60,715 bases of DNA. Source: an uncultured Gammaproteobacteria bacterium. Lineage in GTDB: Bacteria; Patescibacteriota; Patescibacteriia; 2-01-FULL-39-33. Positions 42,746-56,618 of the stretch are shown piece by piece. The stretch's first letter is position 1. Every line of letters begins with the position of its first letter. The notes beneath the pieces are model-generated. The model made no database searches. It was not told where the DNA came from and saw only the letters and a list, made by a program, of their open reading frames with translations. The translations under genes and the position numbers were made by a program. Location: positions 1 to 60,715 of the forward strand of contig CAYIBK010000002.1 in assembly GCA_964361645.1 (NCBI GenBank). Reading direction: 5' to 3'.

Positions 42746-45700
42746 ATGAGATCAAAAAATCCAATTAAAAAAATTATTCTATCAATGCTTATGGTTTTGA
42801 TAGTAATTGGTATTTTTGGTTTTTTGGGCTTGGCTTTGGCTCAAGAGCCGGATAGGTTTGGTTTGGAAAGTGCTACTGGCGTGGGCTTGCCCCAAACCGA
42901 TTTAAGAATTGCCATTATTAATATCATCAGGTTTATTTTAGGATTCTTAGGCATTATTGCGGTGATAATTATTCTCTGGGGCGGTTATCTTTGGATGACT
43001 TCAGGCGGTGATCCCAGTAAAATAGAGAAGGCCAAAAAAACTTTAGTTTCGGCGGTTATTGGTTTGGTAATTATATTATCGGCTTTCATTATCGCTTCTT
43101 TTGTAATTAATTCTCTTCAAGGAGTTTTGTGTCAGGGTGATAATTGTGCCACCGAGTCTTGTCCTACCCCCCCTTGCACGCCAACTTGTCCCAACCCTCC
43201 TTGCACGCCAGGATCCTCTAATCAATTTACTTATATTAATAAATTCAAAGACGATTCCATTCCTTGGGTTAGAACTATTGGCCCATCTTTTTCTGGCGTG
43301 GCCAAAATGCCCGCTAGCGCCACCTTAGAAGTAGGTGGTTATGCCAAAAATAAAGACGGCACTATTGTTAGTATGGAATTATTTACTGCTCCCTCAACTA
43401 CTCCGCCAATTGTTTTTGTGGCTCAAAGTCCATTTACTGATGTGCAAAGTGATCAAGAAGTAGTGGATAATGTTTTTGCTTCTTGGAATTCACTCGCTTA
43501 TGCCATTAATAATCAATATCGGGCCAAAATATCAGCTCTGCTTTCTGGTAATAGAACCATTGAATCTCGAGTAATTAAAACTATTGTCAAACCTCTACAT
43601 TGTTTTAATAACATCCAAGATCAAGGTGAAACCGGCATTGATTGCGGTGGTGATCCAGTTGTCTTAGGCGATGATTATTGCGGTGCTTGCGACGGCGGAC
43701 CTTGCGTTGATGATAGTGATTGTGATGGCGGAGCTTGTTTGCCTGACGGCACTTGTGCCTTCCCTCCTTTTATTTCCAGCATTGTTCCAGACAATGGAGC
43801 TAAAAATAATTACATCACTATTTGGGGAAGCCATTTTGGCGATAGTCCCGGATCGGTAATGCTGATAAAAGATGATGTTATAATGGCCTTTGCCAATGTT
43901 AATACTAATCCTGATTGTATCAATGGCTGGAATGATACCCAGATAATTTTTGAAGTTCCGGATATTGCTTTAGATAGTTATGAAGTTATGGTGGAAAGTA
44001 ATATTGGTTTAACCAGTAACACTAAAGAGTTTGAAGTTAACGAAATCTCCCGCCCGGGAATTTGTTCGGTTAATCCTAATTATGGCATTAATCCGGATCC
44101 TCTAGAAATTGTGGGTAATAGTTTCCCTACTGCTCCCGATGGCCAAGTTTATTGGAATTTCAAACCCGACATTTTTTCTAGTCCATCAGTTACTTGGATT
44201 AATGGCACTCATGCCAGTGATATAGTGCCAGAGAGTGGCGTGGGCACCACCAGCATTAGAATTTATAATGGCGTAGAATATAGTAATTATTATAAATTTA
44301 TAATCAGCCGAGGGGAAATAGGCGATCCCTGTGGTACGCCTGGTGAAACAGTTTGTTCGGCAGAGAATGTTTGTAACACTGGGTTATTTTGTGATCCCAA
44401 TCAGGGTTGTACTTGCCAGGTAGTGGTAAATGCTTGCGAGCCAGGAGCCGAAAGAGATTGTGAAATTGATGGTGAAACTTGTGTCACTAAAGAATTTTGT
44501 CCAGCTAGTGGCAATTGGGACGATGCTGTTTGTACCAAAGTAGATCCAGCTTGCGTATCGGGAGTAACGGTTGAACCAGCCACTCAATCAATTTTTGCTT
44601 GGGCCTTTGTCTATGGTAATGGTTATGGCTTTAAGCCACCACAAGTTATAGAAGATTGTAGCCGTGTTAGAGAATGTTATCCCAATCAGAAATTGCCTAG
44701 CCCGGCTCCGTGGTATGAGGGTGTGGGCGCCACCGAAGGTTGGGATCCGGTTATTCATCCGAATTTATCAATTGAAGATCCCAAAGCTTGTATTAATTCC
44801 ACTATCTCCGCTCGGTTTACGCAGAAGATGAATGAGCAATCAGTCAAAGATTATGTTAAGGTTTTTAGATGCACCAGTAGGGATGGCACGGATTGCACTC
44901 CGGTTAATGGTGAAGTGCAAGTTTATCCTACTGAAGAAGGAGTTAGGGATTATTTTCAATTCGGCAGCCCGACTATAAACAATCCCACAGATTTCATTGC
45001 TAATTCTTGGTATAAAATTGTTTTAACTAAAGGTATCAAAAGCATATTTAATGTAGAAATGGATACTAGCACCCAGGTTGTTAGTAATCGTTTTTGTAAT
45101 GTGGCTGGTATAACTGATGCTGTTTATTGCTGGAATTTTCAAACCAGAGAAACCAATACCTATTGTGATCCAGGTTGTCCGGAATGTAATCCAGATCCCA
45201 AGACTTTGAATTATTATTTTCAGACTCAGCAATTTACTACTGCTGTTATCAGCGACGATAATGTTTGTCTAATGATCGATCCCTGGGCTTATAATTGGAA
45301 TTGGTTTTCAGAAAATGAAGACAAGGTTATGATCACTAATAATGGCGGTATACCTCAGCAAATAGGTACTGCTTACGGCGAAAATTACAATATCTTTCCG
45401 GGATTTACCAAGGTGTATGCCGAGCTCACTTTAACCGAACAAAACGATTATTGTCGGGTGACGACTGATTTTACCAATCCAGTTGTGATGGAATCTCCCT
45501 TCTGTACTCGGGGCATTATCCAAAGCCCCACTCCTTGGATTAATTCCAAGGATGCTTGTCGCAATGCGCTGGTAGCTGCCAGATTTAGCCGTGATATGCA
45601 CGATGAAAGCTTAACTCTTAATACCATTACGGGATTAATAGAAAATGACGCCAATGCTAAAAATGGCAATATTATTGTAGAAGAATGCGATCATAGCGAA

Positions 45701-48700
45701 AATTTTGAAGACGCTTTTCCGGCTTGTGAAAGTATTAAAATAGCCGAAGCTACTAGTTTAAGAATATTCACTTACAGCCATGATGTGGATATCCAAGGGT
45801 TGTTAGCTGGCGACACTAGTTTTGGCGCTGGCTTAGCTGAGGGGTTTGTGATTGATGTCAATAAAAAAGACATTGGCGGAAAACCAACAGCCGATGAATA
45901 TCTGGCTTCCGATATGTGGTATCGTGTTATTATTTTAGGCGGTCCAGAAGGTGTGGGCGGAGCCGATAATACCGGCGATGGCATTCCCGATGGTGTCTTA
46001 CTAACCAAAAATAGTATTACCGAGCAAGTTAGAGATGGTTGGGATTATAACGGAGATGGTTTTAATGATTACTACTGGGTTTTCAAAACTAGTACTCATG
46101 CTTGTGATGTTAGTGATGTTCAAGTTACTCCAGTAGAAAATTTCTTGGAATTCACCGATCAAACTAGCCAATACGACGCCTTCCCTCAAGCTAGTAACTG
46201 TAATCTTTTAGCTCGTTGTTTGCTTAATTGGACTTGGCGATCATTGATCGAACTGGGCGATACGGCGGTGTCAGAGAGCGGCGAGGTTATTGCTTCCATC
46301 ACTAAATTAGAAGTCCAAGTCGGAATTTGTGGCGCCTTTGATGACAATACAATAGATCCAGTTCAAACTGCCACTGCTCATTTAGATGGTGATACTAATA
46401 TTAGAGCCGATGAGCCAGGAGGAAAATGGGGCTATGGCCATTTGCAAGTTGGTTATGGCCAGTTGGCAGTTATAAAATATAGTCCCAAGAATTTGACTCA
46501 TTTTGAAGATAGAAGGGTTGATGTTGATTTTAATATTGATGCTAAGATGAGTTCAATTAAATTCAATGATAACACCAGATTATACAAATGCACCGATGCT
46601 AAGGCTTATTATAAATTCAATAACAGTATTGTGGATAGTTCTGGCAACAAATACGACTCCACCAACAAAAGTATTTCGTATACCACTGGCTATTTCGGTT
46701 CAGCGGCCAATTTCAGAGGCAATGCCAATCAATATATTCAAATAAAAGATGATAATAATAATTTAAAAATTGCTAATGCCTTAACCATTTCTGCTTGGGT
46801 AAGGCCAACCGCTCCGACTAGCCCACTAGGTCGGGTGGTAGTTTCCAATTATTATTGGGATTTAAATCCTGCCAACCAGCGTGGAATTTTATTGGGTGAT
46901 CAATGGGGTTGTTCTGGTGATAGTTGTGTGCCAACTGATGAATTTCAATTTATGGTTTATGATGCCACTGGTAATAATGCCGTTGCTTCCAAACCAGATT
47001 TCTTTAAGGATAATTTAAATAAATGGACTCATGTGGTGGGTGTTTACGAACTGGGTGTTGCGGTTAGGTTGTATATCAATGGAGTGTTAGCGGCTCAAGA
47101 CATCACCGCCGTGCCAGCCGCTATTGCTTATAATCTAAATTTGCCCACCAGAATTGGTGCGCGCGCCGACAATTCCGGACAAGGTATGTGGAACGGCCAA
47201 ATTGATGATTTAAGGCTTTACAATAAAATTCTAACACTTAATGATATTAAGGCTTTATATACCAGCAGTAGCGAGTGTCCGGCTATTGGCTTGGTTTCTA
47301 AAACATTGGATCCTATTTTGCCCCCCGTGCCTATTGAGGCTGGGCCAGAATTATCCAGAAAGATAACTGCCCGATCATCAGCTGATTATCAAGTGGGTGC
47401 AGAATACAGAATGATTTTAAAAGGCGGGCCAAATGGATTGATAGCTTGGAACAATAACGAGTTAAGTAGGTTGAATTTCAATAGCACCGGCGAAACTGGT
47501 GGGGAAGAATGTGAAGCCAATATTTATCCTTGGACAGAACAAGCCGGCATTTGCACTAATACTTGTCTTTTAAGTCCTTCTTTTGATTTATGCAGTGTTT
47601 CGGGCGGACGGTTTGCTCAGTGCCAAAATACCGTACCCGATTCAAATTCCGATTATTGTAATAATAATTGCTATAATCTGGGCAATAATAACACCGCTTC
47701 TTGTGGTAATAGTGTTGTTGAAACTACCAAAGAAGAATGTGATGATGGCAATGCCAATAATAATGATGGTTGTTCTAATGTGTGTTTATGGGAAGGATCA
47801 GATGATAGTTGGGGCTCAATTTGCGGTAATGGCCGAACTGAAAATGGCGAGAATTGTGACGATGGCAATACTAATAATGGCGATGGTTGTTCTAGTATTT
47901 GTTTAAAGGAGGCCGCTCGTCCCAGTGGTTCCTCGGCCAATATTCCAGTCTGTGGCAATGGCACTAAAGAACGGGGGGAGGATTGCGATGATAGCAATAC
48001 CACTGCCGGTGATGGCTGTTCCAATACTTGTTTACTAGAAGGCTCGGCTACTACTTGTGGCAATGGCCAGGTGGAAAACGGCCAAGCGGATAGTTTCTCT
48101 TGGACCTTTTCTGCTGTCAACGATCCGTCGGTAACTATTAGCATGAATAACTGCTCCAATGGTATTTGGCAGGTATTAGTCAAGCGCGGTGATATTGGTG
48201 CCGATAATATTTTTATTTGTAAAAGAGATGCTCTATCGATGTTAGACGATAATATTTGGGGCAAAATAATTTATAAGATAAAATTAGTTATTGCTAAATT
48301 CTTCGGTAATAGCGCGTCGGCTGTAGCCGGTGATGGTTGTGGAGTTGGTTATACTAAGGTTACTGATTTTGAGGAAACATTAGAGTATCTGAAACAAGAC
48401 AGCCATGTTTATACTTATGTCAAAGATGGCTACTGGGATGTAGACAAAAAATACAAGATTAATGTTTATGAAGGCACTTTTGATCCGGTTACCAATAATA
48501 TTCCGAAAGTGGCCCAAGAAGTGACCATTAAAGAGTATTGCAAGATTGATGATGTCAAAGTAGAAATTTGGCCTCGGGGCGAAGAAAGTTATAATGATAA
48601 TTTCTTTTGTGTAGGTGATGAATGTGGTCTCCATACTTCCAGCCTATACGATAATGATATTTCCTCTGATTCTAATTTAGATGCTCCAGTTGAGGATTAT

Positions 48701-51700
48701 GATTTTCCTTATGTAAAAATAAACGGCACTAATGTAACCGATCATAATTTAGCTAATAATCAGCATTTGTATTTGGCTTGGGCCATAAATAGTGTTGGTT
48801 ATTTGATTAAATCAGAAGGTGGCTTAAATTGGAGTGTGGCAGGACTACCAAAATTTGATTTGTCGGTTACTGATTTTGATCCTAATTCTAATTATTCCGG
48901 CGAGTGGCTTAATTTAAACAGCGCTAGGGTAGGTGCCATAGACGGGCAAGATGTTTTAACTGTTGGTGCTACCCAAAATCCTCCACCGGGCTTAGGTTTG
49001 GCTTCTACTAAAGCCAAGGATGTTAATATTAAGATATTTTTATGTTCTAATCCTTGGCCGGATCCGCAGAATTTCCCTTACCGTGACTCGGCTAATAATT
49101 GCGGAGCAACACCGTGTCCAAATACTAATTTTGAAGTTTATTATTGCCGTGATAATGGCGTGGTAGGCGAAGCTGAAGATTTACCCTCTTTAGATACCAG
49201 CACCATAGTTTATGGCGGAGATCCTTTTAAGAAAGAATTCTTGCTTCAAAGAGCTGATAAAAGCGATGCCGTGGGTATCAGAGTAGTAGCCAACGACAAC
49301 CATTATTCTCCATTGGTTTGGTATCGGGAAAATTTTGATCCCAACAGGCAAGGCAATCCTAAAAGTACCTCAGTTAATGGTTATGACGCTATTGCCGAGG
49401 GGCGAACTGTTTATGCTAATGCCATTAATATTGAACCTCCAGTGGCTAACAGAACCTTGTATCCTAATATTTATTTGATTTCTTACAGCGAGGGTGCAGA
49501 TAATGACACGCAAAATATTTTCCAGCAAATGGCTCGATTTATGAAGCTTAATGTGGGCTCAAATGAAGAAGGTGGTTTGCCGGGCATCAGCACTTGTCAG
49601 AATACCCCAGCTTATAAATGTTGGGACGGCAGTGATTGCGAAGCGGTTAACGCCGGTGCTTGTATGTCTGATAAAGGACAACTAACTCGCGATACTAGGC
49701 GCTTAGGCGATATTCAAGATATAAATTGGCTCTTAAATGATTATCAAAATCAAAAGCGTTGCAGTAATGATAAATTTATTACTTGCTATAGTAATGCCCA
49801 GTGTTATGGCGGCGGAACATGCGATTATTATTATCCCGATTTGCCTTCTGGCACGTATATTTCTGGTCGCAGTTTCAGCGTTTGGCCTTCTTGGCAAGCC
49901 ACTCTGGGCAATGTTTTGGATTCGGCCTTGCCCCTAGATCCCTTAAATGCCAGCTCTGGTTTTGATGGTTGTGATTCGCCCTATGACCCTGTAACTTGCT
50001 GGGATGAGATTACTAAGAAAATGCAATGTCCGACAGCCGCTAAAGTTTATTCTTATTTTGCCAATAATAATGGCGCCATCAAAAATATTTACGCTTTCAA
50101 AGAATTTAATCTTGGTTCGTGGCGTCCGGCTGATTGGGCGACAGTCAGGTTTATGAACGGCGATCCTTTCGCTTTAGCGGTTGAGAGTATTTGTCGTACA
50201 TTTTCTGGCACTTGCGGTAATGGCACCATTGAAGCTGGAGAAGATTGCAACAATTGTCCTTTTGATGTTGTTTGTCCTTCTGGTAATTCCTGTCGTCAAA
50301 CAGGCGCCTCTTGGGCTTGCACGCCGGATGCTTCTTTTATTGATTCCGATGGTGACACTATAGCCAATAAAAATGATAATTGTCCTTTTATCGCCAATAC
50401 CGATCAACTTGATACCGATGGTGACAAAGTGGGTGATGCTTGCGATAATTGTTTAAACATTAAAAATGGCTCTACCTCTTCTACAGTTACCTGTTTAGAC
50501 AAAGACAGTAATGGCAAATTAAGTCAGGTGGAAAAAGCTGTTTGCAATCAAAGCGACAAAGACAGTGATACAGTGGGTGATGCCTGCGATAATTGCCCTA
50601 ATGATTATAATAAAGACCAAAGCGTTAGGCCATGTCTTTTGCCGGGTTGCGGTGATGGCGTGGTGCAACCTGGGGAAGATTGCGATGACGGAGAAAATCC
50701 CCCCACCAATGCCGGAACTTGTAATGCCACTTGCAGTGCCCCTACTTTCTGCGGTGACGGCTTTATACAGAGTTTGAATGGCCAGGGCGTTAGTGAGGTT
50801 TGTGATGATAACAACGGCTTTTCTGGTGATGGTTGTTCTAATAAATGTGTTATAGAAACAGGTTGGGTTTGTGTGGGAGTGCCTACTAGTGTTTGCCATT
50901 TGCCTTTTTGTGGTGATGGTTTAAAAAAAGACACAGAAGTTTGTGATTGTGGCGACGGTGTGGGCCCATTAAGTGCGCCTTCTAAATGTGGCAATACTGG
51001 CATAGCTTATAATTATACTACTTACAATATACCTCCCACTGCTAATTTAAATACTTATTTTATTCCTTATTGGAATTTAACTCCGGTAAGTTGGCATTTT
51101 TGCAATAATGCTTGCAAGGATAGAACAGCTCTTCCACCTTATTGCAGTGACGGAGAATGGGATAATATTAATGAGCAATGTGAAGGTCAAAGTCCGACAG
51201 TTCCACCTACCCCCATTCCTAGTGATGGCTCGTTTGGCTGGGGCCGAGGCCTAAGCGCTACCGATCAGTGGGCCTGTAGTAATACTTGCACCGATACTGG
51301 CGGCTATTGTGGAGATGATATTAAAAATGGTCCAGAAATATGCGAGCCGGCTGAAGAGCCCTATGGCGAATTATGTGCTAATAATTGCACTTGGAAAGCT
51401 TGTCCGCCATACACTAGTAACAACATCACTCTTAGCGCTTTTACTGGCGTACCTCCTTCTGTTGAGGCTGATATGAGCGATGTGCCCACTTGTCTTTCAG
51501 CGGATAAAATTAAAGCTGATTTTTCTATTACCACAAGTGATCCCAGGGCCGTAATAGTATTTGTTAATGATTTATCAGGCAGTATGGACGGGGGTCCATT
51601 AAATACTTTAAAATCCAGTTTAACTGCTAAAATAGGAGATATCTTTACCGCTATTCCCAGTGCCAAGATTGGTTTAGTGAGTTTTTCTCAAACTGGCCGA

Positions 51701-52561
51701 AATGATGTGGGAAATCAATGTCCTAATTCTTTATGTGGTAGGAATAACATTGATGTCTTAACTGATATAATTTCTAATTACACCGCCAGTGGTGGTACTA
51801 ATCCCGCTGATGGCTTGGCTAAGGCTCAAGTAATCATTGACCCAGCAGCAGCACTTAATAAATTTGTCATTCTTATGGGTGATGGTGCTGCTAATACTGA
51901 TAAGTTTTGTAATATTAATGATGTTTGGCCCTCTTGCACTAGCACTAATTTAGGTTGGAAATTGGCTTGTTTCGGTAATCAATATCAACAAGATTGTAGT
52001 GGTGATCCTATTGCTACCACTCTTAAATTGGATTCGAAATTAAAAATATATTCTGTAGCTTATGGAGCAGAAGCTGATAAGGAAGCCCTGAATAGAATCT
52101 CATCTAATAATGGCGTCGGTAGTTGCGGCACTGGTTTTTGTCTGATGGGTAATGAAGGTGATTTAGACAACCTTTATATCAGTATTATTGATGAAATACA
52201 AAATAATTTAGCCATTGATTTTGAGATTAAGATAGGCAGTCAAACAACCAATTTTCATCTTAAGATGCCAATTTCTGGTCCGGGTGTTTTCAATAATCGC
52301 AACCTTGATTTACCCCCTGGCTTTTGCACTCCCACCACTAATAATAGAAAAGTTAAGGTTTTAGGCTATGGGTTTACTCTGTCTATGACTAATCTAAGAT
52401 TAAGCTATTGTCCTTATCATCCAGCCACCGCTTATGAAACTGGTGTGGCCAGTGGCAATGTGGCGGGAGATTTTGAAGAGACAAAACCAGCTAGTAAATT
52501 GTTTGATATTATAGCTATCATCAAGAATTTATTTTTTAATTTATTGAGCCAAATATTTTAG
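42746..52561 (+). CDS. 3271-aa giant surface protein: pilin-type N-terminal module + IPT/TIG + LamG + Cys-rich CGNG repeats + thrombospondin type-3 repeats + VWA domain
   Basis: Single uninterrupted ORF. Motif landmarks: IPT/TIG (PFISSIVPDNGAKNNYITIWGSHFG, ~43765-44320); LamG (LTISAWVRP...WTHVVGVYE...GQIDDLRLYNKILT, ~46600-47270); CGNGxxExGExCDDGNxxxGDGCSxxC x3-4 (47698-48085 and ~50211-50960); TSP3 (DSDGD...NDNCPFIANTDQLDTDGDKVGDACDNC, 50341-50625); VWA MIDAS (VNDLSGSMDG...GGTNPADGL...MGDGAAN, ~51540-52200). Confidence 0.9.
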   Translation: MRSKNPIKKIILSMLMVLIVIGIFGFLGLALAQEPDRFGLESATGVGLPQTDLRIAIINIIRFILGFLGIIAVIIILWGGYLWMTSGGDPSKIEKAKKTLVSAVIGLVIILSAFIIASFVINSLQGVLCQGDNCATESCPTPPCTPTCPNPPCTPGSSNQFTYINKFKDDSIPWVRTIGPSFSGVAKMPASATLEVGGYAKNKDGTIVSMELFTAPSTTPPIVFVAQSPFTDVQSDQEVVDNVFASWNSLAYAINNQYRAKISALLSGNRTIESRVIKTIVKPLHCFNNIQDQGETGIDCGGDPVVLGDDYCGACDGGPCVDDSDCDGGACLPDGTCAFPPFISSIVPDNGAKNNYITIWGSHFGDSPGSVMLIKDDVIMAFANVNTNPDCINGWNDTQIIFEVPDIALDSYEVMVESNIGLTSNTKEFEVNEISRPGICSVNPNYGINPDPLEIVGNSFPTAPDGQVYWNFKPDIFSSPSVTWINGTHASDIVPESGVGTTSIRIYNGVEYSNYYKFIISRGEIGDPCGTPGETVCSAENVCNTGLFCDPNQGCTCQVVVNACEPGAERDCEIDGETCVTKEFCPASGNWDDAVCTKVDPACVSGVTVEPATQSIFAWAFVYGNGYGFKPPQVIEDCSRVRECYPNQKLPSPAPWYEGVGATEGWDPVIHPNLSIEDPKACINSTISARFTQKMNEQSVKDYVKVFRCTSRDGTDCTPVNGEVQVYPTEEGVRDYFQFGSPTINNPTDFIANSWYKIVLTKGIKSIFNVEMDTSTQVVSNRFCNVAGITDAVYCWNFQTRETNTYCDPGCPECNPDPKTLNYYFQTQQFTTAVISDDNVCLMIDPWAYNWNWFSENEDKVMITNNGGIPQQIGTAYGENYNIFPGFTKVYAELTLTEQNDYCRVTTDFTNPVVMESPFCTRGIIQSPTPWINSKDACRNALVAARFSRDMHDESLTLNTITGLIENDANAKNGNIIVEECDHSENFEDAFPACESIKIAEATSLRIFTYSHDVDIQGLLAGDTSFGAGLAEGFVIDVNKKDIGGKPTADEYLASDMWYRVIILGGPEGVGGADNTGDGIPDGVLLTKNSITEQVRDGWDYNGDGFNDYYWVFKTSTHACDVSDVQVTPVENFLEFTDQTSQYDAFPQASNCNLLARCLLNWTWRSLIELGDTAVSESGEVIASITKLEVQVGICGAFDDNTIDPVQTATAHLDGDTNIRADEPGGKWGYGHLQVGYGQLAVIKYSPKNLTHFEDRRVDVDFNIDAKMSSIKFNDNTRLYKCTDAKAYYKFNNSIVDSSGNKYDSTNKSISYTTGYFGSAANFRGNANQYIQIKDDNNNLKIANALTISAWVRPTAPTSPLGRVVVSNYYWDLNPANQRGILLGDQWGCSGDSCVPTDEFQFMVYDATGNNAVASKPDFFKDNLNKWTHVVGVYELGVAVRLYINGVLAAQDITAVPAAIAYNLNLPTRIGARADNSGQGMWNGQIDDLRLYNKILTLNDIKALYTSSSECPAIGLVSKTLDPILPPVPIEAGPELSRKITARSSADYQVGAEYRMILKGGPNGLIAWNNNELSRLNFNSTGETGGEECEANIYPWTEQAGICTNTCLLSPSFDLCSVSGGRFAQCQNTVPDSNSDYCNNNCYNLGNNNTASCGNSVVETTKEECDDGNANNNDGCSNVCLWEGSDDSWGSICGNGRTENGENCDDGNTNNGDGCSSICLKEAARPSGSSANIPVCGNGTKERGEDCDDSNTTAGDGCSNTCLLEGSATTCGNGQVENGQADSFSWTFSAVNDPSVTISMNNCSNGIWQVLVKRGDIGADNIFICKRDALSMLDDNIWGKIIYKIKLVIAKFFGNSASAVAGDGCGVGYTKVTDFEETLEYLKQDSHVYTYVKDGYWDVDKKYKINVYEGTFDPVTNNIPKVAQEVTIKEYCKIDDVKVEIWPRGEESYNDNFFCVGDECGLHTSSLYDNDISSDSNLDAPVEDYDFPYVKINGTNVTDHNLANNQHLYLAWAINSVGYLIKSEGGLNWSVAGLPKFDLSVTDFDPNSNYSGEWLNLNSARVGAIDGQDVLTVGATQNPPPGLGLASTKAKDVNIKIFLCSNPWPDPQNFPYRDSANNCGATPCPNTNFEVYYCRDNGVVGEAEDLPSLDTSTIVYGGDPFKKEFLLQRADKSDAVGIRVVANDNHYSPLVWYRENFDPNRQGNPKSTSVNGYDAIAEGRTVYANAINIEPPVANRTLYPNIYLISYSEGADNDTQNIFQQMARFMKLNVGSNEEGGLPGISTCQNTPAYKCWDGSDCEAVNAGACMSDKGQLTRDTRRLGDIQDINWLLNDYQNQKRCSNDKFITCYSNAQCYGGGTCDYYYPDLPSGTYISGRSFSVWPSWQATLGNVLDSALPLDPLNASSGFDGCDSPYDPVTCWDEITKKMQCPTAAKVYSYFANNNGAIKNIYAFKEFNLGSWRPADWATVRFMNGDPFALAVESICRTFSGTCGNGTIEAGEDCNNCPFDVVCPSGNSCRQTGASWACTPDASFIDSDGDTIANKNDNCPFIANTDQLDTDGDKVGDACDNCLNIKNGSTSSTVTCLDKDSNGKLSQVEKAVCNQSDKDSDTVGDACDNCPNDYNKDQSVRPCLLPGCGDGVVQPGEDCDDGENPPTNAGTCNATCSAPTFCGDGFIQSLNGQGVSEVCDDNNGFSGDGCSNKCVIETGWVCVGVPTSVCHLPFCGDGLKKDTEVCDCGDGVGPLSAPSKCGNTGIAYNYTTYNIPPTANLNTYFIPYWNLTPVSWHFCNNACKDRTALPPYCSDGEWDNINEQCEGQSPTVPPTPIPSDGSFGWGRGLSATDQWACSNTCTDTGGYCGDDIKNGPEICEPAEEPYGELCANNCTWKACPPYTSNNITLSAFTGVPPSVEADMSDVPTCLSADKIKADFSITTSDPRAVIVFVNDLSGSMDGGPLNTLKSSLTAKIGDIFTAIPSAKIGLVSFSQTGRNDVGNQCPNSLCGRNNIDVLTDIISNYTASGGTNPADGLAKAQVIIDPAAALNKFVILMGDGAANTDKFCNINDVWPSCTSTNLGWKLACFGNQYQQDCSGDPIATTLKLDSKLKIYSVAYGAEADKEALNRISSNNGVGSCGTGFCLMGNEGDLDNLYISIIDEIQNNLAIDFEIKIGSQTTNFHLKMPISGPGVFNNRNLDLPPGFCTPTTNNRKVKVLGYGFTLSMTNLRLSYCPYHPATAYETGVASGNVAGDFEETKPASKLFDIIAIIKNLFFNLLSQIF

Positions 52562-52711: not shown

Positions 52712-53500
52712 GTGGGGATTTATTTTAAATTTATGTTTGATCAAAATCCCATCGCACCATCAGGCCCAGTGCCGGGTGAACCCAAAAGACAAGTCCCTCC
52801 GCCAGCTAATTTGCCAGGAACCCCTCAACCACCGCAAGTGGAAGATATTTTTTTGAAAACAGAAATACCTTCATCGGCTAAGATTTCTAGGCCAATACAG
52901 CCAGGCCAAGCTTCACAGATGCAGGTGAGCGGCGATGTTTTTGGCGGTAGGTCAGTCTGGGGCAATAAGGTTTTGTTGATAGTTTTGTCCTTGATTGGTT
53001 TGGCTATAATTGGCGGTGTGGTTTGGGCAGCGGTTAGTTTTTTCTCTGGTAGAGAAGAAATTGTTAATACTAATTTAAATACTAATCTTAACACCAACAT
53101 AAACACCAACACAGAAATCAATACCAATACCGAAATTAATGAGAATGTTAACACTAATACTGATGTCAACACCAACACCAACACCAATACTAATGCTAAT
53201 GAGAATGTTAATACCAATGAGAATACTAATGCCAATATAAATACCAACACCAATGTTCCTCTAGGCAAAGACAGCGATAATGATGGTTTAAGTGATGAAG
53301 AGGAAAAGCAGTTGGGCACCAATCCCAGTAATTTTGATACTGATGGCGATGGCCTAACCGATAGGGTGGAAGTTAGGATTTATCATACTGATCCATTAAA
53401 AAAGGATACCGATGGCGATAGCTATAATGATGGTGATGAAGTGGTTAATGGCTTTGATCCTACCAAGGGTGGTGGTGCTAGGCTATTTGATGTGCCTTAA
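52712..53500 (+). CDS. membrane-anchored protein with an Asn/Thr microsatellite linker and TSP3-like Ca-binding repeats
   Basis: Pro-rich N-terminus, one TM helix, a (NTN/NEN)n tract, then DSDNDGLSDEEEKQLGTNPSNFDTDGDGLTDRVE...DTDGDSYNDGDE. The start may be ATG 52733 rather than GTG 52712. Confidence 0.7.
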   Translation: MGIYFKFMFDQNPIAPSGPVPGEPKRQVPPPANLPGTPQPPQVEDIFLKTEIPSSAKISRPIQPGQASQMQVSGDVFGGRSVWGNKVLLIVLSLIGLAIIGGVVWAAVSFFSGREEIVNTNLNTNLNTNINTNTEINTNTEINENVNTNTDVNTNTNTNTNANENVNTNENTNANINTNTNVPLGKDSDNDGLSDEEEKQLGTNPSNFDTDGDGLTDRVEVRIYHTDPLKKDTDGDSYNDGDEVVNGFDPTKGGGARLFDVP

Positions 53501-53568: not shown

Positions 53569-54618
53569 ATGTTTGGTTCAAAGAAAAATAATATTATGTC
53601 CCCCAATGCCACTTCTTCAAAAGAAGAGGTTTATGTTATGCCCGAAAAATTTCATCCGCAAAAATCACAGCAATCATCCAATAAAACATTAGCGATTGTT
53701 ATTATTATCTTGTTGTTAATAGCGGTTTCTGCTGGATCTTATTTTATGTATAACATGTGGCAAAACAATCAGAATCAAACCAATCAAAATGTAGCTATTG
53801 TCAACCTCAACACCAATGCCAATGAGAATATTAATACCAATGAAAATAGGAATTTGAATAATAATGAAAATATTAATACCAATGAAAACGTTAATGCTAC
53901 CACCACTTTGAATCTCAATGCTAACGACAATAGCAATAGCAATACTAATACCAACATCACTATCGATGAATTGGTTCCGCCTACACTTAGTGGTGATGCT
54001 GATAAAGACGGCCTGACTGATTTAGAAGAAGCTTTAATCGGTACTTCGCCCAGTTCACCGGATTCAGATTTGGACGGCTATATAGACAGTGAAGAGTTAA
54101 TTAGCGGTTATAATCCGATAATTAATCCCAATGGTGGCAAGCCATTTCGTTTAGCTGAAGCCGCCTTCATTAGTAAATTATCCACTAATTTCCCGGCTAA
54201 TAATTTTCAAACTTTATATATTAAAGGCTGGTCTGTTAGCTTGATTGAGGCCCTGCACGAAGCCAGAATAATCACTGGCACAGGGGAGATGATAAAAATT
54301 TCTGTCATAAACAATGATGATCAGATTTCAGCGGCTAATTGGTATCTATTTAATCATCCGCAAATTGCCCTAAGCCAATTGAGTAATTTGGAGTTTGGTA
54401 ATTTTAAAGGCGTGCGTTCACCCAACGGCTTATCTGTTTATATTACCGATCAAACTAGGTCTAAGATTTATGCTTTTGAATATGATTTAGATACTACGTC
54501 TGAATTCCGCTACCCCTCAATATTTGAAATGATCATTAGAAATTTCCAATTAATCAATGAGCCAATTAACACCAATACCAATACTAATTCATCAACTGCT
54601 ACTTCTACCGGGCTTTAA
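53569..54618 (+). CDS. membrane-anchored protein with an Asn-rich tract, TSP3-like repeats and a C-terminal globular domain
   Basis: One TM helix, an NxNxNEN tract, DADKDGLTDLEEALIGTSPSSPDSDLDGYIDSEELISGYNP, then a ~170-aa unassigned domain. Confidence 0.7.
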   Translation: MFGSKKNNIMSPNATSSKEEVYVMPEKFHPQKSQQSSNKTLAIVIIILLLIAVSAGSYFMYNMWQNNQNQTNQNVAIVNLNTNANENINTNENRNLNNNENINTNENVNATTTLNLNANDNSNSNTNTNITIDELVPPTLSGDADKDGLTDLEEALIGTSPSSPDSDLDGYIDSEELISGYNPIINPNGGKPFRLAEAAFISKLSTNFPANNFQTLYIKGWSVSLIEALHEARIITGTGEMIKISVINNDDQISAANWYLFNHPQIALSQLSNLEFGNFKGVRSPNGLSVYITDQTRSKIYAFEYDLDTTSEFRYPSIFEMIIRNFQLINEPINTNTNTNSSTATSTGL

Positions 54619-54627
54619 AACCAGACT

Positions 54628-55116
54628 ATGCTATTATTTGAAGTTAGCAAACAAACTAATATTTCGATTTCAGGCAAATGGCTTAGTGAGATAGCCAAAG
54701 CTTTCGATCAAGAAAAAAAATTAAAGGGCAAATGGTATTTTTCTTTGGCTTTTGTTGATAGTAAAACCATCAAACGTCTCAATAAGATATATCGAGGTAA
54801 AAATAAAATAACCGATGTTCTGAGTTTTGAGGAGGATTTCAAAAATTTTGTTGATTTGCCCATAGATAGAAAATATTTAGGTGAGATTGTCATTTGTGTG
54901 CCTCAAGCCAAAAAACAAGCTAAGGATATCAAGTGCAGTTTAAATAAAGAGATAGCTAGATTATTGGTGCACGGCCTAGCTCACTTATCTGGTTATGATC
55001 ATGAAAGGAATGGGCTAAAGGCAGCGGATAGGATGCTACGCTTTGAAAAAAGAATACTGGTAAAATTAAAAATTTGGAGTATATTTAAATTTGAGGAGGA
55101 GCCAATCGATTGTTGA
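54628..55116 (+). CDS. ybeY: rRNA maturation endoribonuclease YbeY
   Basis: Zinc motif HGLAHLSGYDHE (HxxxHxxxxxH). Confidence 0.9.
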   Translation: MLLFEVSKQTNISISGKWLSEIAKAFDQEKKLKGKWYFSLAFVDSKTIKRLNKIYRGKNKITDVLSFEEDFKNFVDLPIDRKYLGEIVICVPQAKKQAKDIKCSLNKEIARLLVHGLAHLSGYDHERNGLKAADRMLRFEKRILVKLKIWSIFKFEEEPIDC

Positions 55117-55206
55117 AATTAACACTGAACACATTTTTTATTCAATTGTTCACTTATTAACATTTGAGGTGAACAGTTTTTTTTACTATAATTAAAGTAA
55201 CTTGAA

Positions 55207-55275
55207 GTTTACCCTATTAAGCAGGCAACTTCGTCGCCAAAAATAATTCCATAATTTTTACTTAATAGGGTTAAC
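55207..55275 (+). repeat. ~70-nt palindromic element, family C, copy 1 (upstream of ftsA)
   Basis: gtttaccctattaag-caggcaacttcgtcgcc-aaaaataattccataattttta-cttaatagggttaac. The same-orientation homologue lies at 57912-57980. Confidence 0.75.
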
Positions 55276-55302
55276 TATCAATTTCTAGTTTAATATAAAT
55301 CC

Positions 55303-56553: not shown

Positions 56554-56618
56554 ATTAATTATTTAGATCTGCCAATAGGCAGTAATTAAAAATTAACAAT
56601 TAACAATTTTATAATTAT

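What the first reader, a model, noticed from the sequence alone, without database searches (positions are those of the whole stretch)
42746..52561. 3271-aa mosaic surface protein combining eukaryote-like adhesion modules
This is a single 9.8-kb ORF, about 16% of the window. After the pilin-like anchor and a CPTPPCTPTCPNPPCTPG linker, the following are recognisable. There is a CFNN..DQGETGIDCGG Cys-rich module and two IPT/TIG domains. There are several Ig-like (SbsA/Big_5-type) modules and a LamG/concanavalin-type lectin domain. Two blocks of CGNGxxExGExCDDGNxxxGDGCSxxC repeats are present (the 'Myxococcus cysteine-rich repeat' type), as are thrombospondin type-3 calcium-binding repeats. A C-terminal VWA domain has an intact MIDAS (DxSxS...T...D), and the protein ends in a hydrophobic tail. 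VWA, TSP3, LamG and IPT together form a ligand- and cell-binding repertoire, suggesting a host- or partner-cell attachment machine. It may act together with the neighbouring 973-aa paralogue and the TSP3-like proteins downstream.
Basis: partly seen in the sequence, partly recalled or inferred. Interest (0 to 1): 0.8.

Follow-up and report, generated by a model that had tools for sequence, protein, structure and literature searches.

The report
Giant pilin-anchored patescibacterial surface protein
This is a real 3,271-residue gene from an ultrasmall Patescibacteria bacterium; it encodes a membrane-anchored, cysteine-rich surface protein from a large, apparently undescribed family that sits in a conserved gene cassette beside the cell-division genes and probably mediates binding to a partner cell or surface.

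Summary
The ORF at 42746..52561 (+) is real, with 3,271 codons and one terminal stop. Collinear orthologues of 52-68% identity exist in five other assemblies. One TIG domain is marginal. The second TIG and the Big_5 modules are weak. The 'hydrophobic tail' is amphipathic.

Three new points emerged.
1. The protein belongs to a family of 2,000-4,800-aa proteins in Parcubacteria-group Patescibacteria, and 116 of 119 homologues carry the same pilin-like N-terminus.
2. The gene lies in a deeply conserved cassette: SPase I-HisRS-S21-YqeY-[pilin+Big_5 protein]-[giant]-[TM-TSP3 protein]-[~350-aa protein]-YbeY-FtsA-FtsZ. This was seen in 7/7 annotated loci and 45/56 species genomes. It is not in a T4SS cluster.
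3. The best-conserved part (aa 2091-2485) is a ~410-aa domain with no Pfam, PDB-sequence or significant PDB-fold match, found in 1,645 cluster representatives.

The distal VWA end evolves fastest.

The best reading is a hairpin-anchored giant adhesin-like fibre. 'Eukaryote-like' is misleading, and the 973-aa neighbour is paralogous only in the anchor. I rate it a new variant of a known kind, of moderate interest.

The parts
42746..42841 (+). Signal peptide (aa 1-32): basic n-region, hydrophobic core, conserved ALA|Q signal-peptidase-I-type site
   Evidence: Alignment of 37 N-termini keeps 'ALAQ' at aa 30-33. Hydropathy segment aa 5-35. The model shows a helix at aa 6-31. Cleavage itself is inferred.
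42842..43126 (+). VirB2-like pilin module (aa 33-127): short mature N-terminus, hydrophobic helix 51-84, basic loop SGGDPSKIEKAKK, hydrophobic helix 90-127
   Evidence: Pfam T4SS_pilin PF18895, 45.1 bits against GA 26.6. TrbC gives 23 bits, below GA. NCBIfam Mbov_0395 pilin-like conjugal transfer protein, E 6e-9, below its cut-off. AF2 hairpin pLDDT is 90 or more. The loop has 4 K/R and there are none after helix 2.
43127..43219 (+). Pro/Thr/Cys-rich linker (aa 128-158) containing CPTPPCTPTCPNPPCTPG
   Evidence: Read directly. 80% mean identity among orthologues, the most conserved segment. TRF finds a 27-nt unit in 2 copies at 43158-43210.
43220..43591 (+). Unassigned post-linker domain (aa 159-282); variable across the family
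   Evidence: No Pfam hit. Shared by only 27-45 of 119 homologues over aa 151-250.
43592..43765 (+). Cys-rich module HCFNN..DQGETGIDCGG..C (aa 283-340)
   Evidence: 79% identity among orthologues. Present in about 108-116 of 119 homologues. No family model matched.
43766..44311 (+). Two tandem IPT/TIG-like Ig domains (aa 341-432 and 433-522)
   Evidence: Copy 1: Pfam TIG 21.4 bits against GA 20.9. Copy 2: hhalign to copy 1, probability 70%, E 4e-5, and Pfam TIG in 1 of 5 orthologues. PF01833 is precomputed in most homologues.
44312..46645 (+). Cys-rich knots and Big_5-like/unassigned beta-rich region (aa 523-1300)
   Evidence: Big_5 20.2 bits at aa 682-768, below GA 23.6. PF13205 is precomputed in most homologues. 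aa 523-950 is shared by about 86-102 of 119 homologues. No structure was predicted here.
46724..47248 (+). LamG/concanavalin-A-like jelly roll (aa 1327-1501); accessory module
   Evidence: Pfam Laminin_G_3, 86.4 bits. Shared by only about 11 of 119 homologues.
47501..48085 (+). Cys-rich block 1 (aa 1586-1780) with 3-4 'Myxococcus cysteine-rich' repeats
   Evidence: TIGR02232 104 bits; DUF4215 51 bits, 3 stretches. Regex finds repeats at aa 1693 and 1736.
48086..49015 (+). Unassigned region (aa 1781-2090) including an amphipathic helix plus 'VAG' segment (about aa 1836-1862) that resembles the C-terminal tail
   Evidence: No Pfam hit. The tail HMM also hits this internal segment.
49016..50200 (+). 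Family-defining conserved domain of unknown function (aa 2091-2485); motifs DAxGxRV..N..HYSP..WY, K.KL.RD..RL.D, SGT[YF]..(9)..S.WPSWQ..LG..LG..LP.DP[LI]N
   Evidence: 72% identity among orthologues. Present in 106 of 119 homologues. 1,645 cluster representatives at E<=1e-3. AF2 pLDDT 88.8, pTM 0.88. No PDB fold match at E<=1e-3; the best has TM 0.19. BFVD gives only subdomain matches, the best at E 6e-4 and TM 0.21. No Pfam family in 36 members. No PDB sequence match.
50201..50635 (+). Thrombospondin type-3 calcium-binding repeats with Cys (aa 2486-2630)
   Evidence: phmmer against PDB: COMP 3fby E 2.9e-12, thrombospondin-2 1yo8 E 1.3e-10. Pfam TSP_3 24.2 bits against GA 25. NCBIfam MtsC-type E 3.5e-12. 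Three D-x-D-x-D..C motifs.
50636..50920 (+). Cys-rich block 2 (aa 2631-2725), Myxococcus-type repeats
   Evidence: DUF4215 31.1 bits (3 stretches); TIGR02232 46.7 bits.
50921..51550 (+). Unassigned Cys-rich region (aa 2726-2935)
   Evidence: No family hit. 18 Cys in aa 2701-2900.
51554..52114 (+). VWA domain with MIDAS-type residues (aa 2937-3123); fastest-evolving part
   Evidence: Pfam VWA 39.1 bits against GA 23.8. DLSGS at 2942, GGT at 3016, GDG at about 3047. D2942 and S2944 are invariant in orthologues. Only 41% identity among orthologues, against 53-80% in the regions up to aa 2890. Shared by about 17-24 of 119 homologues.
52196..52558 (+). C-terminal beta region ending ...NLRLSYCP (aa 3151-3225), then a lineage-specific tail: xVAG, 10-18 aa, amphipathic helix (aa 3226-3271)
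   Evidence: Most homologues end at ...LSNLRIEYCAP. 11 of 120 carry the extra tail. Hydropathy maximum 1.54. No LPXTG-like motif.
39809..42730 (+). Cassette partner 1: 973-aa protein with the same pilin module plus Big_5 Ig-like domains
   Evidence: PF18895 42.3 bits and Big_5 44.2 bits. 52% identity to the giant over aa 9-134 only. An equivalent 580-1,048-aa gene lies immediately upstream of the giant in 7/7 loci.
52712..53500 (+). Cassette partner 2: 262-aa single-pass membrane protein with an Asn/Thr-rich linker and bacterial TSP3 repeats
   Evidence: TSP3_bac 78.4 bits. Sequence. A homologue lies downstream in 51 of 56 genomes.
53569..54618 (+). Cassette partner 3: 349-aa single-pass membrane protein with an Asn-rich linker, a TSP3-like DxDxDG stretch and an unassigned C-terminal domain
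   Evidence: Sequence. No significant Pfam hit. A homologue lies downstream in 48 of 56 genomes.
36728..37360 (+). Signal peptidase I (S26), conserved upstream neighbour and candidate processing enzyme for the ALA|Q site
   Evidence: Peptidase_S26 155 bits. Present in the same position in all 7 annotated loci. A functional link is inferred only.
54628..57803 (+). Conserved downstream neighbours YbeY, FtsA and FtsZ (context, not part of the protein)
   Evidence: Pfam. Same strand and order in 45, 45 and 43 of 56 genomes. Intergenic gaps are 9-186 nt.

Best explanation
The gene encodes a giant cell-surface fibre of a monoderm Patescibacteria bacterium (a Candidatus Buchananbacteria relative). 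It is held in the cytoplasmic membrane by a VirB2-type pilin hairpin rather than by a sortase, lipid or single-pass anchor.

Proposed working:
1. The precursor is exported by Sec and cut by signal peptidase I at the conserved ALA|Q site.
2. The two hydrophobic helices stay in the membrane. Their basic loop faces the cytoplasm, so the C-terminus, and with it about 3,140 residues, is outside.
3. A Pro/Thr/Cys linker carries the chain through the wall.
4. A stalk follows, made of Ig-like (TIG, Big_5-like) domains and disulfide knots (144 Cys, all extracellular) with calcium-binding TSP3 repeats. It projects a conserved ~410-aa domain of unknown activity and, at the far end, a fast-evolving VWA/MIDAS domain that binds a ligand on a partner cell or surface.
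5. It acts as part of a four-gene envelope cassette: a second pilin-anchored Big_5 protein and two single-pass TSP3 membrane proteins. This cassette has been vertically inherited by Parcubacteria-group lineages between yqeY and ybeY-ftsA-ftsZ.

Shown: the ORF, the domain content, the sequence features from which the topology is inferred, family size, synteny and relative rates.
Inferred: cleavage, surface exposure, adhesion as the function, and cooperation of the four proteins.
For: - The ORF is intact and orthologues are collinear.
- PF18895 scores above the gathering score. There is a signal peptide with a conserved ALAQ, two hydrophobic segments and a basic loop with 4 K/R, and no K/R in the 40 residues after helix 2.
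- All 144 Cys lie after aa 128.
- LamG, TSP3, Cys repeats and VWA with MIDAS residues are supported.
- 116 of 119 homologues of 2,000-4,800 aa share the N-terminal module, with Big_5, TIG, DUF4215 and VWA in their precomputed Pfam lists.
- The accessory modules LamG and VWA are each present in a minority of homologues. The VWA end has 34-42% identity among orthologues, against 53-80% in the regions up to aa 2890. This fits a distal specificity-determining tip.
- The cassette is conserved in 7/7 annotated loci and in 45-51 of 56 species genomes.
- Literature: giant membrane proteins of CPR bacteria are thought to mediate host recognition (PMC8080830, PMC13059738, PMC4508563). T4SS-pilin-domain proteins are among the most highly expressed secreted genes in cultured Paceibacteria (PMC10936435).
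Against: - There is no experimental datum for this family: no expression, localisation or binding data.
- The anchor has not been shown to stay in the membrane.
- About 40% of the chain, including its best-conserved domain, has no assignable function, so the main activity may not be adhesion.
- Near-universal conservation and fixed position beside division and wall genes is unusual for host-specific adhesins, which are usually variable islands.
- VWA and LamG, the clearest binding modules, are missing from most family members.
Confidence: 0.55

Rival explanations
1. T4SS-pilus tip or minor pilin. The VirB2-like module is extracted from the membrane by the patescibacterial type IV secretion system and built into a conjugative-type pilus. 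With ~3,100 residues attached, it could only sit at the tip or at low stoichiometry, which would make the giant (and the 973-aa partner) pilus-borne adhesins. This would parallel VirB5 or PilY1-type tip adhesins.
For: - PF18895 membership, a weak TrbC/VirB2 match and a weak mycoplasma-ICE pilin match.
- Patescibacteria are the only monoderms with VirB2-like pilins. Their T4SS and pilin array are essential in Southlakia (PMC10633639, PMC12857230), and pilin genes are often multiplied and divergent (PMC12102498).
- Two tandem pilin-module genes occur here.
- From my own knowledge, not tested here: both ends of conjugative pilins lie on the pilus exterior and short C-terminal fusions to F-pilin are tolerated; VWA domains are typical of pilus-tip adhesins (PilY1, RrgA).
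Against: - No VirB4, VirB6 or VirD4 gene lies in the 60.7-kb window or within 10 kb in 7 syntenic loci.
- In class ABY1, T4SS loci are reported next to comF, recG and radA, a different neighbourhood (PMC12102498). That the lineages carrying this family belong to ABY1 is my own knowledge, not a tool result.
- A 3,100-residue extension is without precedent for a polymerising VirB2.
- Foldseek with the hairpin model returned only generic helical hairpins and no conjugative pilin. The PDB profile search found nothing.
Confidence: 0.17
2. Structural envelope scaffold. Together with the 973-aa pilin-Big_5 protein and the two TM-TSP3 proteins, the giant forms a calcium- and disulfide-stabilised surface layer or wall-spanning lattice. 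It would be needed for envelope integrity or division of these ultrasmall cells, not for partner recognition.
For: - Near-universal, single-locus, vertically conserved cassette between SPase I/HisRS/YqeY and YbeY/FtsA/FtsZ, with LytR-CpsA-Psr adjacent.
- Short intergenic gaps suggest co-transcription with housekeeping genes.
- Big_5 is the SbsA-type Ig domain known from S-layer proteins (own knowledge).
- TSP3 calcium-binding repeats occur in three of the four cassette proteins.
- The most conserved parts are proximal or central, not the binding tip.
Against: - From my own knowledge, S-layer proteins are usually much smaller, Cys-poor and not anchored by a two-helix hairpin.
- The distal modules are swapped between lineages (LamG, VWA, Kazal, FG-GAP, Big_7) and evolve fast, which fits recognition better than lattice building.
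- There is no significant similarity to any solved S-layer protein; the hits have E about 0.8.
Confidence: 0.15
3. Surface-tethered enzyme or effector platform. The conserved ~410-aa domain is a catalytic or lipid/glycan-handling module, for example one acting on the partner's envelope. The rest of the protein positions it.
For: - The domain is the best-conserved large segment (72%) and the most widespread (1,645 representatives).
- It has invariant or nearly invariant polar and aromatic residues (R, D, E, N, W, Y).
- Weak subdomain fold resemblance to lipoprotein or lipid-binding alpha/beta folds: TP0453, RseB, Mog1-like and phage lipoproteins, at E 6e-4 to 0.4 and TM about 0.2.
- Giant genes of other ultrasmall predators have been linked to cell-wall degradation (bioRxiv 10.1101/2023.11.21.568195).
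Against: - There is no match to any enzyme family in Pfam, NCBIfam, PHROGs or PDB.
- The fold hits are below significance and cover about a third of the domain.
- No catalytic motif was recognised.
Confidence: 0.08
4. Artefact: a misassembled, chimeric or decaying ORF.
For: The source is a metagenome-assembled contig; the identical protein P0001 lies on a 71-kb NCBI contig. The gene contains repeated modules.
Against: - There is a single stop in 9.8 kb, with P about 1e-94 by chance.
- DNA repeats are short and diverged.
- Five independent orthologues are collinear end to end, with hundreds of invariant positions including most Cys.
- Synteny is identical across assemblies.
Confidence: 0.02

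Closest known systems
VirB2/TrbC/TraA conjugative pilins and the patescibacterial VirB2-like pilins (Pfam PF04956, PF18895; Wang et al. 2023 PMC10633639; Quinonero-Coronel et al. 2025 PMC12102498)
   Same: Signal peptide, two hydrophobic helices joined by a short basic loop, and a PF18895 score above threshold. Tandem, divergent copies occur, as in the reported pilin arrays. It is found in the only monoderm phylum known to have such pilins.
   Different: Those pilins are small (roughly 100-150 aa as precursors) and about 60% of them lie near virB4. Here the module is the N-terminal 4% of a 3,271-aa protein, is encoded between yqeY and ybeY/ftsA/ftsZ, and has no T4SS gene within reach. Polymerisation is unproven, and the fold search could not discriminate.
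Giant membrane or surface proteins of CPR bacteria (Vampirococcus lugosii PMC8080830; Absconditicoccaceae PMC13059738; OD1 '>1500 aa adhesin-like proteins' PMC4508563)
   Same: Very large, membrane-associated, adhesion-type domains in an ultrasmall bacterium presumed to be host-dependent. The presumed role is recognition and attachment.
   Different: Those reports list heterogeneous large proteins with WD40, PKD, integrin, fn3 and similar domains in other classes. None describes a VirB2-type anchor, this conserved ~410-aa domain, or a fixed syntenic cassette.
Pilus-tip and wall-anchored adhesins with VWA/MIDAS domains (PilY1 of type IV pili; RrgA and GBS104 of sortase pili). Own knowledge, not tested here.
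   Same: A distal VWA domain with an intact MIDAS motif on a long stalk of Ig-like domains.
   Different: There is no LPXTG or sortase signal and no type IV (PilA-type) prepilin motif. The anchor is N-terminal. The protein is 3-10 times longer.
Giant repetitive adhesins of diderm bacteria (RTX adhesins such as LapA, SiiE and MpIBP). Own knowledge.
   Same: A size of thousands of residues, calcium-stabilised extender domains and ligand-binding modules near the distal end.
   Different: There are no RTX nonapeptide repeats, no T1SS genes and no highly identical tandem extender repeats. It is a mosaic of distinct domains with very high Cys content.
Myxococcus cysteine-rich repeat proteins (TIGR02232/DUF4215) and MtsC-type TSP3 proteins; animal thrombospondin/COMP type-3 repeats
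   Same: CGNGxxExGExCDDGNxxxGDGCSxxC repeats at 104 bits. D-rich calcium-binding repeats align to COMP and TSP-2 at E 1e-10 to 1e-12.
   Different: These are short building blocks shared across bacteria and animals. They make up under 15% of the protein and say nothing about its origin. 'Eukaryote-like' reflects where the motifs were first named.

Membership tests
Pfam PF18895 T4SS_pilin (VirB2/TrbC-like pilins) | Profile match above the curated gathering score | tested here: met
   45.1 bits against 26.6 on the 400-aa segment, and 37.9 bits on the whole protein. The related models TrbC PF04956 (23 against 27.9) and NCBIfam Mbov_0395 pilin-like (35.4 against 40) fall below their cut-offs.
Pfam PF18895 T4SS_pilin (VirB2/TrbC-like pilins) | Cleavable signal peptide followed by two hydrophobic helices joined by a short positively charged loop | tested here: met
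   Hydropathy segments at aa 5-35, 52-88 and 96-129. ALAQ is conserved. AF2 helices at aa 6-31, 51-84 and 90-127. The loop has 4 K/R. Cleavage itself was not tested.
Pfam PF18895 T4SS_pilin (VirB2/TrbC-like pilins) | Small protein consisting essentially of the pilin module | tested here: not met
   About 3,140 residues follow the module. The same holds in 116 of 119 homologues of 2,000-4,800 aa.
Pfam PF18895 T4SS_pilin (VirB2/TrbC-like pilins) | Encoded in or next to a T4SS gene cluster (VirB4, VirB6, VirD4 and others) | tested here: not met
   There are no such genes in the window or within 10 kb in 7 syntenic loci. Whether a T4SS exists elsewhere in the genome is unknown.
Pfam PF18895 T4SS_pilin (VirB2/TrbC-like pilins) | Fold similarity to solved conjugative pilins | tested here: inconclusive
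   Foldseek against PDB returned only generic helical hairpins (E 0.4 or worse) and no pilin. The profile search against PDB sequences found nothing. Two-helix hairpins are not discriminating.
Pfam PF18895 T4SS_pilin (VirB2/TrbC-like pilins) | Assembles into an extracellular pilus | not testable with these tools
   This needs cryo-EM or cryo-ET, or biochemistry.
VWA domain with MIDAS | Profile match above threshold and the DxSxS...T...D metal-site residues | tested here: met
   VWA 39.1 bits against 23.8. DLSGS at 2942, GGT at 3016 and GDG at about 3047, at the expected spacings. D2942 and S2944 are invariant in orthologues. Metal and ligand binding were not tested.
LamG / concanavalin A-like (PF13385) | Profile match above threshold over the full domain | tested here: met
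   86.4 bits, profile positions 3-150 of 151.
Myxococcus cysteine-rich repeat (TIGR02232 / DUF4215) | Repeated CGNG..E.GE.CDDGN...GDGCS..C units above threshold | tested here: met
   TIGR02232 gives 104.1 and 46.7 bits against 20.8. DUF4215 gives 51.2 and 31.1 bits against 27.
Thrombospondin type-3 repeats | D-rich calcium-binding repeats with paired Cys | tested here: met
   phmmer against PDB: COMP 2.9e-12, TSP-2 1.3e-10. Three motifs at aa 2533, 2556 and 2604. Pfam TSP_3 is just below threshold at 24.2 against 25.
IPT/TIG Ig-like domains | Profile match above threshold (two copies claimed) | tested here: inconclusive
   Copy 1 is marginal at 21.4 against 20.9. Copy 2 has no Pfam hit in this protein, gives hhalign probability 70% to copy 1, and hits Pfam TIG in 1 of 5 orthologues. 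No structure was predicted for this region.
Big_5 (SbsA-type) Ig-like domains | Profile match above threshold (several copies claimed) | tested here: not met
   In the giant there is only one sub-threshold hit, 20.2 against 23.6. The criterion is met in the 973-aa neighbour at 44.2 bits and is listed for most homologues.
Sortase-anchored (LPXTG) Gram-positive adhesins | C-terminal LPXTG-type motif, hydrophobic segment and basic tail | tested here: not met
   There is no LPXTG-like motif in the last 100 aa. The tail is amphipathic, with a hydropathy maximum of 1.54.
RTX / T1SS giant adhesins | RTX nonapeptide repeats, a T1SS signal and transporter genes, and near-identical tandem extender domains | tested here: not met
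   There are no RTX or T1SS families among the Pfam hits. There are no long tandem repeats.
New family proposed here: giant pilin-anchored proteins of Parcubacteria-group Patescibacteria | N-terminal PF18895 module, CFNN-type Cys module, TIG/Big_5 region, DUF4215 repeats and the ~410-aa WPSWQ domain, in the yqeY...ybeY-ftsA-ftsZ cassette | tested here: met
   All elements are present in the query. The synteny is identical.

The most novel reading that the evidence does not exclude
The two tandem VirB2-module proteins may represent a new class of 'pilin-fused megaproteins'. In this reading a conjugative-pilin hairpin has been co-opted as the membrane-extraction or polymerisation handle for a giant appendage, either with the patescibacterial T4SS or independently of it. 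The appendage would be conserved across the Parcubacteria-group lineages that carry the family. Its unannotated ~410-aa domain would be a new fold that engages or breaches the partner cell's envelope. This would tie the unexplained essential T4SS-pilin biology of Patescibacteria to a concrete surface organelle.
Probability: 0.15. Interest if true: 0.8.

Novelty: new variant of a known kind. Interest (0 to 1): 0.55.

Why it matters
Patescibacteria make up a large share of bacterial diversity, and all cultivated members live attached to other cells. How most of them, especially the uncultured Parcubacteria-group lineages, contact their partners is unknown.

This gene is not a one-off mosaic. It represents a family with more than 1,600 cluster representatives that takes up about 1% of a ~1-Mb genome (a genome size typical of the phylum, from the literature). 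The family is inherited in a fixed place beside the division genes, uses the phylum's enigmatic VirB2-like pilin module as its anchor, and carries a confidently modelled domain with no known relative.

That gives three things:
- a concrete, phylogenetically broad candidate for the surface fibres seen on such cells;
- a genomic marker (the cassette) for comparative work;
- a defined domain for structural and binding studies.

If it were only another large adhesin, the finding would be ordinary. The anchor type, the synteny and the new domain lift it above that.

Tried and rejected
1. Exact-sequence look-ups of the window protein and of P0001 found no contig, and the cluster look-up gave no accession. 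The source organism is therefore inferred only from the closest orthologue, Candidatus Buchananbacteria at 68% identity.
2. Foldseek with the pilin-hairpin model was uninformative, returning generic hairpins. The PDB profile search with the pilin alignment was empty.
3. Foldseek (PDB and BFVD), Pfam on 36 members, PHROGs and the PDB profile search for the ~410-aa domain gave no significant relative. The weak TP0453, RseB, Mog1 and phage-lipoprotein resemblances cover about a third of the domain, so I did not build on them.
4. The promoter and terminator scan showed no excess over shuffles, so operon structure rests only on gene spacing.
5. The first genome scan with the full domain alignment failed for lack of a conserved 7-10-column stretch. 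I repeated it with a 13-sequence subalignment. That pattern ([ST][FYV]S[VTA]WPSWQ) samples only the closer part of the family, so 98 genomes is a lower bound.
6. I tested whether the C-terminal 'xVAG + amphipathic helix' tail is a shared sorting signal. It is present in only 11 of 120 homologues and in no other ORF of the window, so I rejected it as a general signal.
7. I considered and rejected horizontal transfer or eukaryotic origin. GC is 40-42% in the two big genes against about 35-37% in the flanks. Conserved vertical synteny and amino-acid composition (Gly, Cys, Asp, Pro) explain this better.
8. dN/dS was not computed. Orthologues are at most 70% identical, so synonymous sites are expected to be saturated. 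Per-region identity was used instead.
The Ig-like nature of those regions therefore rests on weak profile hits and on the homologues' precomputed Pfam lists.

Full report
THE OBSERVATION

The ORF 42746..52561 (+) is present exactly as described, with 3,271 codons and one terminal stop. With the gene's base composition a stop is expected every ~16 codons, and the chance of 3,271 stop-free codons is about 1e-94. No other frame across the region holds an ORF longer than 197 aa.

The gene has no long or near-identical DNA repeats. The longest internal repeats are 43-64 nt at 60-80% identity, which are the coding repeats of the Cys modules. Full-length collinear orthologues of 3,297-3,349 aa at 52-68% identity exist in independent assemblies, and hundreds of positions including most cysteines are invariant. 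Misassembly or pseudogenisation is therefore very unlikely.

An identical protein is in NCBI, called 13 residues shorter (P0001, 71-kb contig). The longer start is supported because the basic n-region is conserved in orthologues.

THE ORGANISM AND WINDOW

The window is low in GC (34-42%). It carries housekeeping genes: tmRNA/SmpB, IF3, ParAB, RelA, TopA, DprA, Der, Pth, HisRS, YbeY, FtsA, FtsZ, NrdD and eight tRNAs.

The closest orthologue lies on a Candidatus Buchananbacteria MAG (GCA_030650095.1). NCBI places this organism in the Parcubacteria group of the Patescibacteria group. No type IV secretion or type IV pilus machinery gene is in the window.

DOMAIN CONTENT

Supported by curated profiles:
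- T4SS_pilin PF18895, aa 59-120, 45 bits against a gathering score (GA) of 26.6.
- LamG_3, aa 1327-1501, 86 bits.
- Two blocks of Myxococcus-type Cys repeats: TIGR02232 at 104 and 47 bits, DUF4215 at 51 and 31 bits.
- TSP type-3 repeats: phmmer to COMP 2.9e-12 and TSP-2 1.3e-10; Pfam 24.2 against 25.
- VWA, aa 2937-3123, 39 bits against 23.8, with DLSGS, GGT and GDG at MIDAS spacing.

Also confirmed:
- The CPTPPCTPTCPNPPCTPG linker is real and is the most conserved segment among orthologues (80%).
- The CFNN...GETGIDCGG module is real and family-wide, but matches no model.

Weaker claims:
- The first TIG is marginal at 21.4 against 20.9.
- The second TIG is supported only by hhalign to the first (probability 70%, E 4e-5) and by one of five orthologues.
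- Big_5 is sub-threshold in this protein (20.2 against 23.6), although most homologues list PF13205 and PF01833.
- The 'hydrophobic tail' is an amphipathic helix below a transmembrane threshold. It follows a conserved xVAG motif. The tail occurs in only 11 of 120 homologues and in no other ORF of the window.

Roughly 40% of the chain has no family assignment.

THE ANCHOR

An alignment of 37 N-termini shows the following order:
- a basic n-region and a hydrophobic core;
- a nearly invariant ALAQ, which looks like a signal peptidase I site (AXA, own knowledge);
- about 20 residues of mature N-terminus;
- a hydrophobic helix, a short loop SGGDPxKIxKAKK, and a second hydrophobic helix.

AF2 models helices at aa 6-31, 51-84 and 90-127, with pLDDT of 90 or more in the hairpin. 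The loop carries four K/R, and the 40 residues after helix 2 carry none. By the positive-inside rule (established knowledge) the loop is cytoplasmic and the C-terminus is outside. All 144 cysteines lie after aa 128, which agrees with an extracellular ectodomain.

This is the architecture of VirB2/TrbC pilins. Direct links to bona fide VirB2 are weak, however. TrbC and the mycoplasma ICE pilin model score below their cut-offs, the PDB profile search found nothing, and Foldseek returned only generic hairpins.

THE FAMILY

The whole-protein search returned 254 relatives. The best 120 are almost all 2,000-4,800 aa proteins of Patescibacteria whose precomputed Pfam lists combine PF18895 with Big_5, TIG, DUF4215 and sometimes VWA, LamG, Big_7, Kazal or FG-GAP. 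116 of 119 have the pilin-like N-terminus.

Mapping BLAST coverage along the query gives two groups of segments:
- Family-wide core: the anchor, aa 251-950, the first Cys-repeat block (aa 1601-1800) and aa 2100-2750.
- Variable accessories: aa 150-250, the LamG region (only ~11 of 119), aa 1800-2050 and the whole C-terminus with VWA (~17-24 of 119).

Among close orthologues the C-terminal 380 residues are 34-42% identical, against 53-80% in the regions up to aa 2890.

A NEW CONSERVED DOMAIN

Residues 2091-2485 are 72% identical among orthologues and occur in 106 of 119 homologues at 26-78% identity. With a 36-sequence alignment, AF2 gives a confident model (pLDDT 88.8, pTM 0.88).

Searches for a relative of this domain:
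- Foldseek found no PDB match at E<=1e-3. The best is 3lyd at E 0.015 and TM 0.19, followed by TP0453, RseB and Mog1.
- BFVD gave two marginal subdomain matches to phage lipoproteins at E<=1e-3, the best at E 6e-4 and TM 0.21.
- No Pfam family is shared by the 36 members.
- PHROGs and the PDB profile search were empty.

An exhaustive HMM search of 1.84 billion cluster representatives found 1,645 proteins with this domain, 1,308 of them at E<=1e-30. Most of the best 150 are 3,000-4,100 aa with the domain about 1,850-2,600 residues in. A word-indexed profile search added shorter proteins of 600-850 aa on long contigs. Its function is unknown.

SYNTENY

This is the most informative result. In the window the order is:
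LytR-CpsA-Psr (-), signal peptidase I, HisRS, S21, YqeY, the 973-aa pilin+Big_5 protein, the giant, a 262-aa TM-TSP3 protein, a 349-aa TM protein, YbeY, FtsA, FtsZ, NrdD.
The gaps from yqeY to ftsZ are 9-186 nt.

The same order, with a 580-1,048-aa pilin+Big_5 gene directly upstream of the giant and TSP3_bac genes directly downstream, was found in all six other annotated loci. In several of these the giant is only 24-36% identical to the query by BLASTP.

A scan of one genome per species with a motif of the new domain found 98 genomes (a lower bound). They are titled Buchanan-, Falkow-, Kerfeld- and Kuenenbacteria, Parcubacteria group and Patescibacteria group. Many TPA MAGs in the list are titled 'uncultured Gammaproteobacteria', which I take to be mislabelling. 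Uhr- and Komeilibacteria appear.

Of 56 loci with enough downstream sequence, the following lie on the same strand and in the same order:
- p262-like: 51
- p349-like: 48
- YbeY: 45
- FtsA: 45
- FtsZ: 43

The 11 exceptions include second copies on the same contig. The cassette is therefore an old, vertically inherited, housekeeping-embedded unit. It is neither a mobile or variable island nor a T4SS cluster. A published survey places T4SS loci of class ABY1 next to comF, recG and radA (PMC12102498). That these lineages correspond to GTDB class ABY1 is my own knowledge, not a tool result.

THE NEIGHBOURS

The 973-aa protein shares only the anchor with the giant (52% over 126 aa; 70% DNA identity over 258 nt). 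The rest is unrelated, so 'paralogue' holds for the module only.

The 262- and 349-aa proteins each have a cytoplasmic N-terminus, one transmembrane helix, an Asn/Thr-rich low-complexity linker and TSP3-type calcium-binding repeats. Only these two genes in the window carry the pilin module.

HOW IT MOST LIKELY WORKS

Shown: the sequence features from which the topology is inferred, the domain set, the conserved partners, and the fast-evolving distal end.

Inferred: Sec export and SPase I cleavage; retention by the hairpin with the ectodomain outside; a disulfide- and calcium-stiffened stalk that presents the conserved 410-aa domain and a variable distal binding module (here VWA/MIDAS, with LamG mid-chain) to a partner cell or surface. 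The other three cassette proteins would form part of the same envelope assembly.

I give this 0.55. The rivals are:
- incorporation into a T4SS pilus as a tip or minor pilin (0.17);
- a structural envelope lattice (0.15);
- a tethered enzyme or effector platform centred on the unknown domain (0.08);
- an artefact (0.02).

The evidence for and against each is in the structured fields.

COMPARISON WITH WHAT IS KNOWN

That CPR bacteria encode giant, membrane-associated, adhesion-type proteins is established in outline (PMC4508563, PMC8080830, PMC13059738, PMC10221324).

That Patescibacteria have VirB2-like pilins, often in divergent arrays and essential in Southlakia, is also established (PMC10633639, PMC12102498, PMC12857230). 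PF18895-domain proteins are among the most highly expressed secreted genes in cultured Paceibacteria (PMC10936435), and PF18895 is the most abundant Pfam domain of freshwater-specific structure clusters (bioRxiv 10.1101/2025.04.23.650224).

In seven full-text searches and ten papers read I found no description of three things: pilin-module fusions to multi-thousand-residue ectodomains, this cassette, or the 410-aa domain. The library is limited to open-access papers and preprints, so absence of a description is not proof.

The label 'eukaryote-like' is not warranted. All modules have bacterial family models, and the gene is vertically conserved.

VERDICT

The protein is an already-deposited but unnamed member of a large, apparently undescribed family. 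As a kind, it is a new variant of the known giant-surface-adhesin theme, distinguished by a VirB2-type anchor, fixed synteny beside the division genes and a new conserved domain.

Interest is 0.55. A specialist would expect a big adhesin in such a genome, but would probably not expect the anchor type, the depth of conservation or the unassigned domain. The lack of cultured hosts for these lineages limits immediate testability.

Noticed in passing
window 52421-52558 (aa 3226-3271) and 48251-48331 (aa ~1836-1862): The C-terminal tail 'xVAG, 10-18 aa, amphipathic helix ...IKNLFFNLLSQIF' is conserved in 11 of 120 homologues. A look-alike segment sits inside the protein (NIWGKIIYKIKLVIAKFFGNSASAVAGDG). 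No other ORF in the window has it, and its role is unexplained (processing site, membrane-surface helix or intramolecular latch).
   Followed up: partly
window 25718-25793 (+): ARAGORN calls a tRNA-Pro with anticodon AGG, and Rfam confirms a tRNA at this position. An A34 tRNA other than tRNA-Arg(ACG) is uncommon in bacteria (own knowledge). It sits in a cluster Cys-Pro-Leu-Arg.
   Followed up: no
window 28264-31279 (+): A protein-kinase-like/ABC1-like gene (451 aa), a radical SAM/SPASM gene (347 aa) and an unassigned 174-aa ORF lie in tandem with overlapping or short gaps. This may be a small peptide-maturation cluster.
   Followed up: no
window 3945-4445 (-): A 166-aa leucine-rich-repeat protein (LRR_8, LRR_4), next to a pirin-like cupin.
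   Followed up: no
window 32087-34082 (+): More envelope-type genes lie outside the cassette: a 278-aa protein with a bacterial TSP3 repeat, and a 183-aa protein with a Gmad2 Ig-like domain.
   Followed up: no
window 53105-53255 and 53812-53961: Degenerate 18-24-nt tandem units encode Asn/Thr-rich (NTNxNTN...) linkers in both small TM-TSP3 cassette proteins. The two genes share the repeat family (14 copies, 61-78% identity).
   Followed up: partly
window 39800-52600 versus flanks; also 1-2000: GC is 40-42% across the two pilin-anchored genes against about 35-37% in the neighbouring genes. The first 2 kb of the window are at 46% and contain a 416-aa ORF with no Pfam hit. The former is probably due to amino-acid composition; the latter was not examined.
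   Followed up: partly
loci L062 and L064 (same 772-kb contig); proteins P0124, P0132, P0137: The ~410-aa domain also occurs in second copies outside the cassette and in much shorter proteins (about 600-850 aa) with TSP3 or LamG, so it is a mobile module within these genomes.
   Followed up: partly
locus titles (e.g. L011, L012, L029): Many species-representative MAGs that carry this Patescibacteria-type cassette are titled 'uncultured Gammaproteobacteria bacterium' (one 'Sideroxydans sp.'). One 2.6-kb contig with the domain is labelled Flavobacterium (P0133). These are probably mislabelled records.
   Followed up: no
window 38890-39312 (+), frame 2: An unlisted short ORF encodes ribosomal protein S21 (…VKRKKGETFEALVRRFSKKIQQSGRLIQSRKIRYYEPGKNK…). 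This completes the HisRS-S21-YqeY synteny seen in the other genomes.
   Followed up: yes
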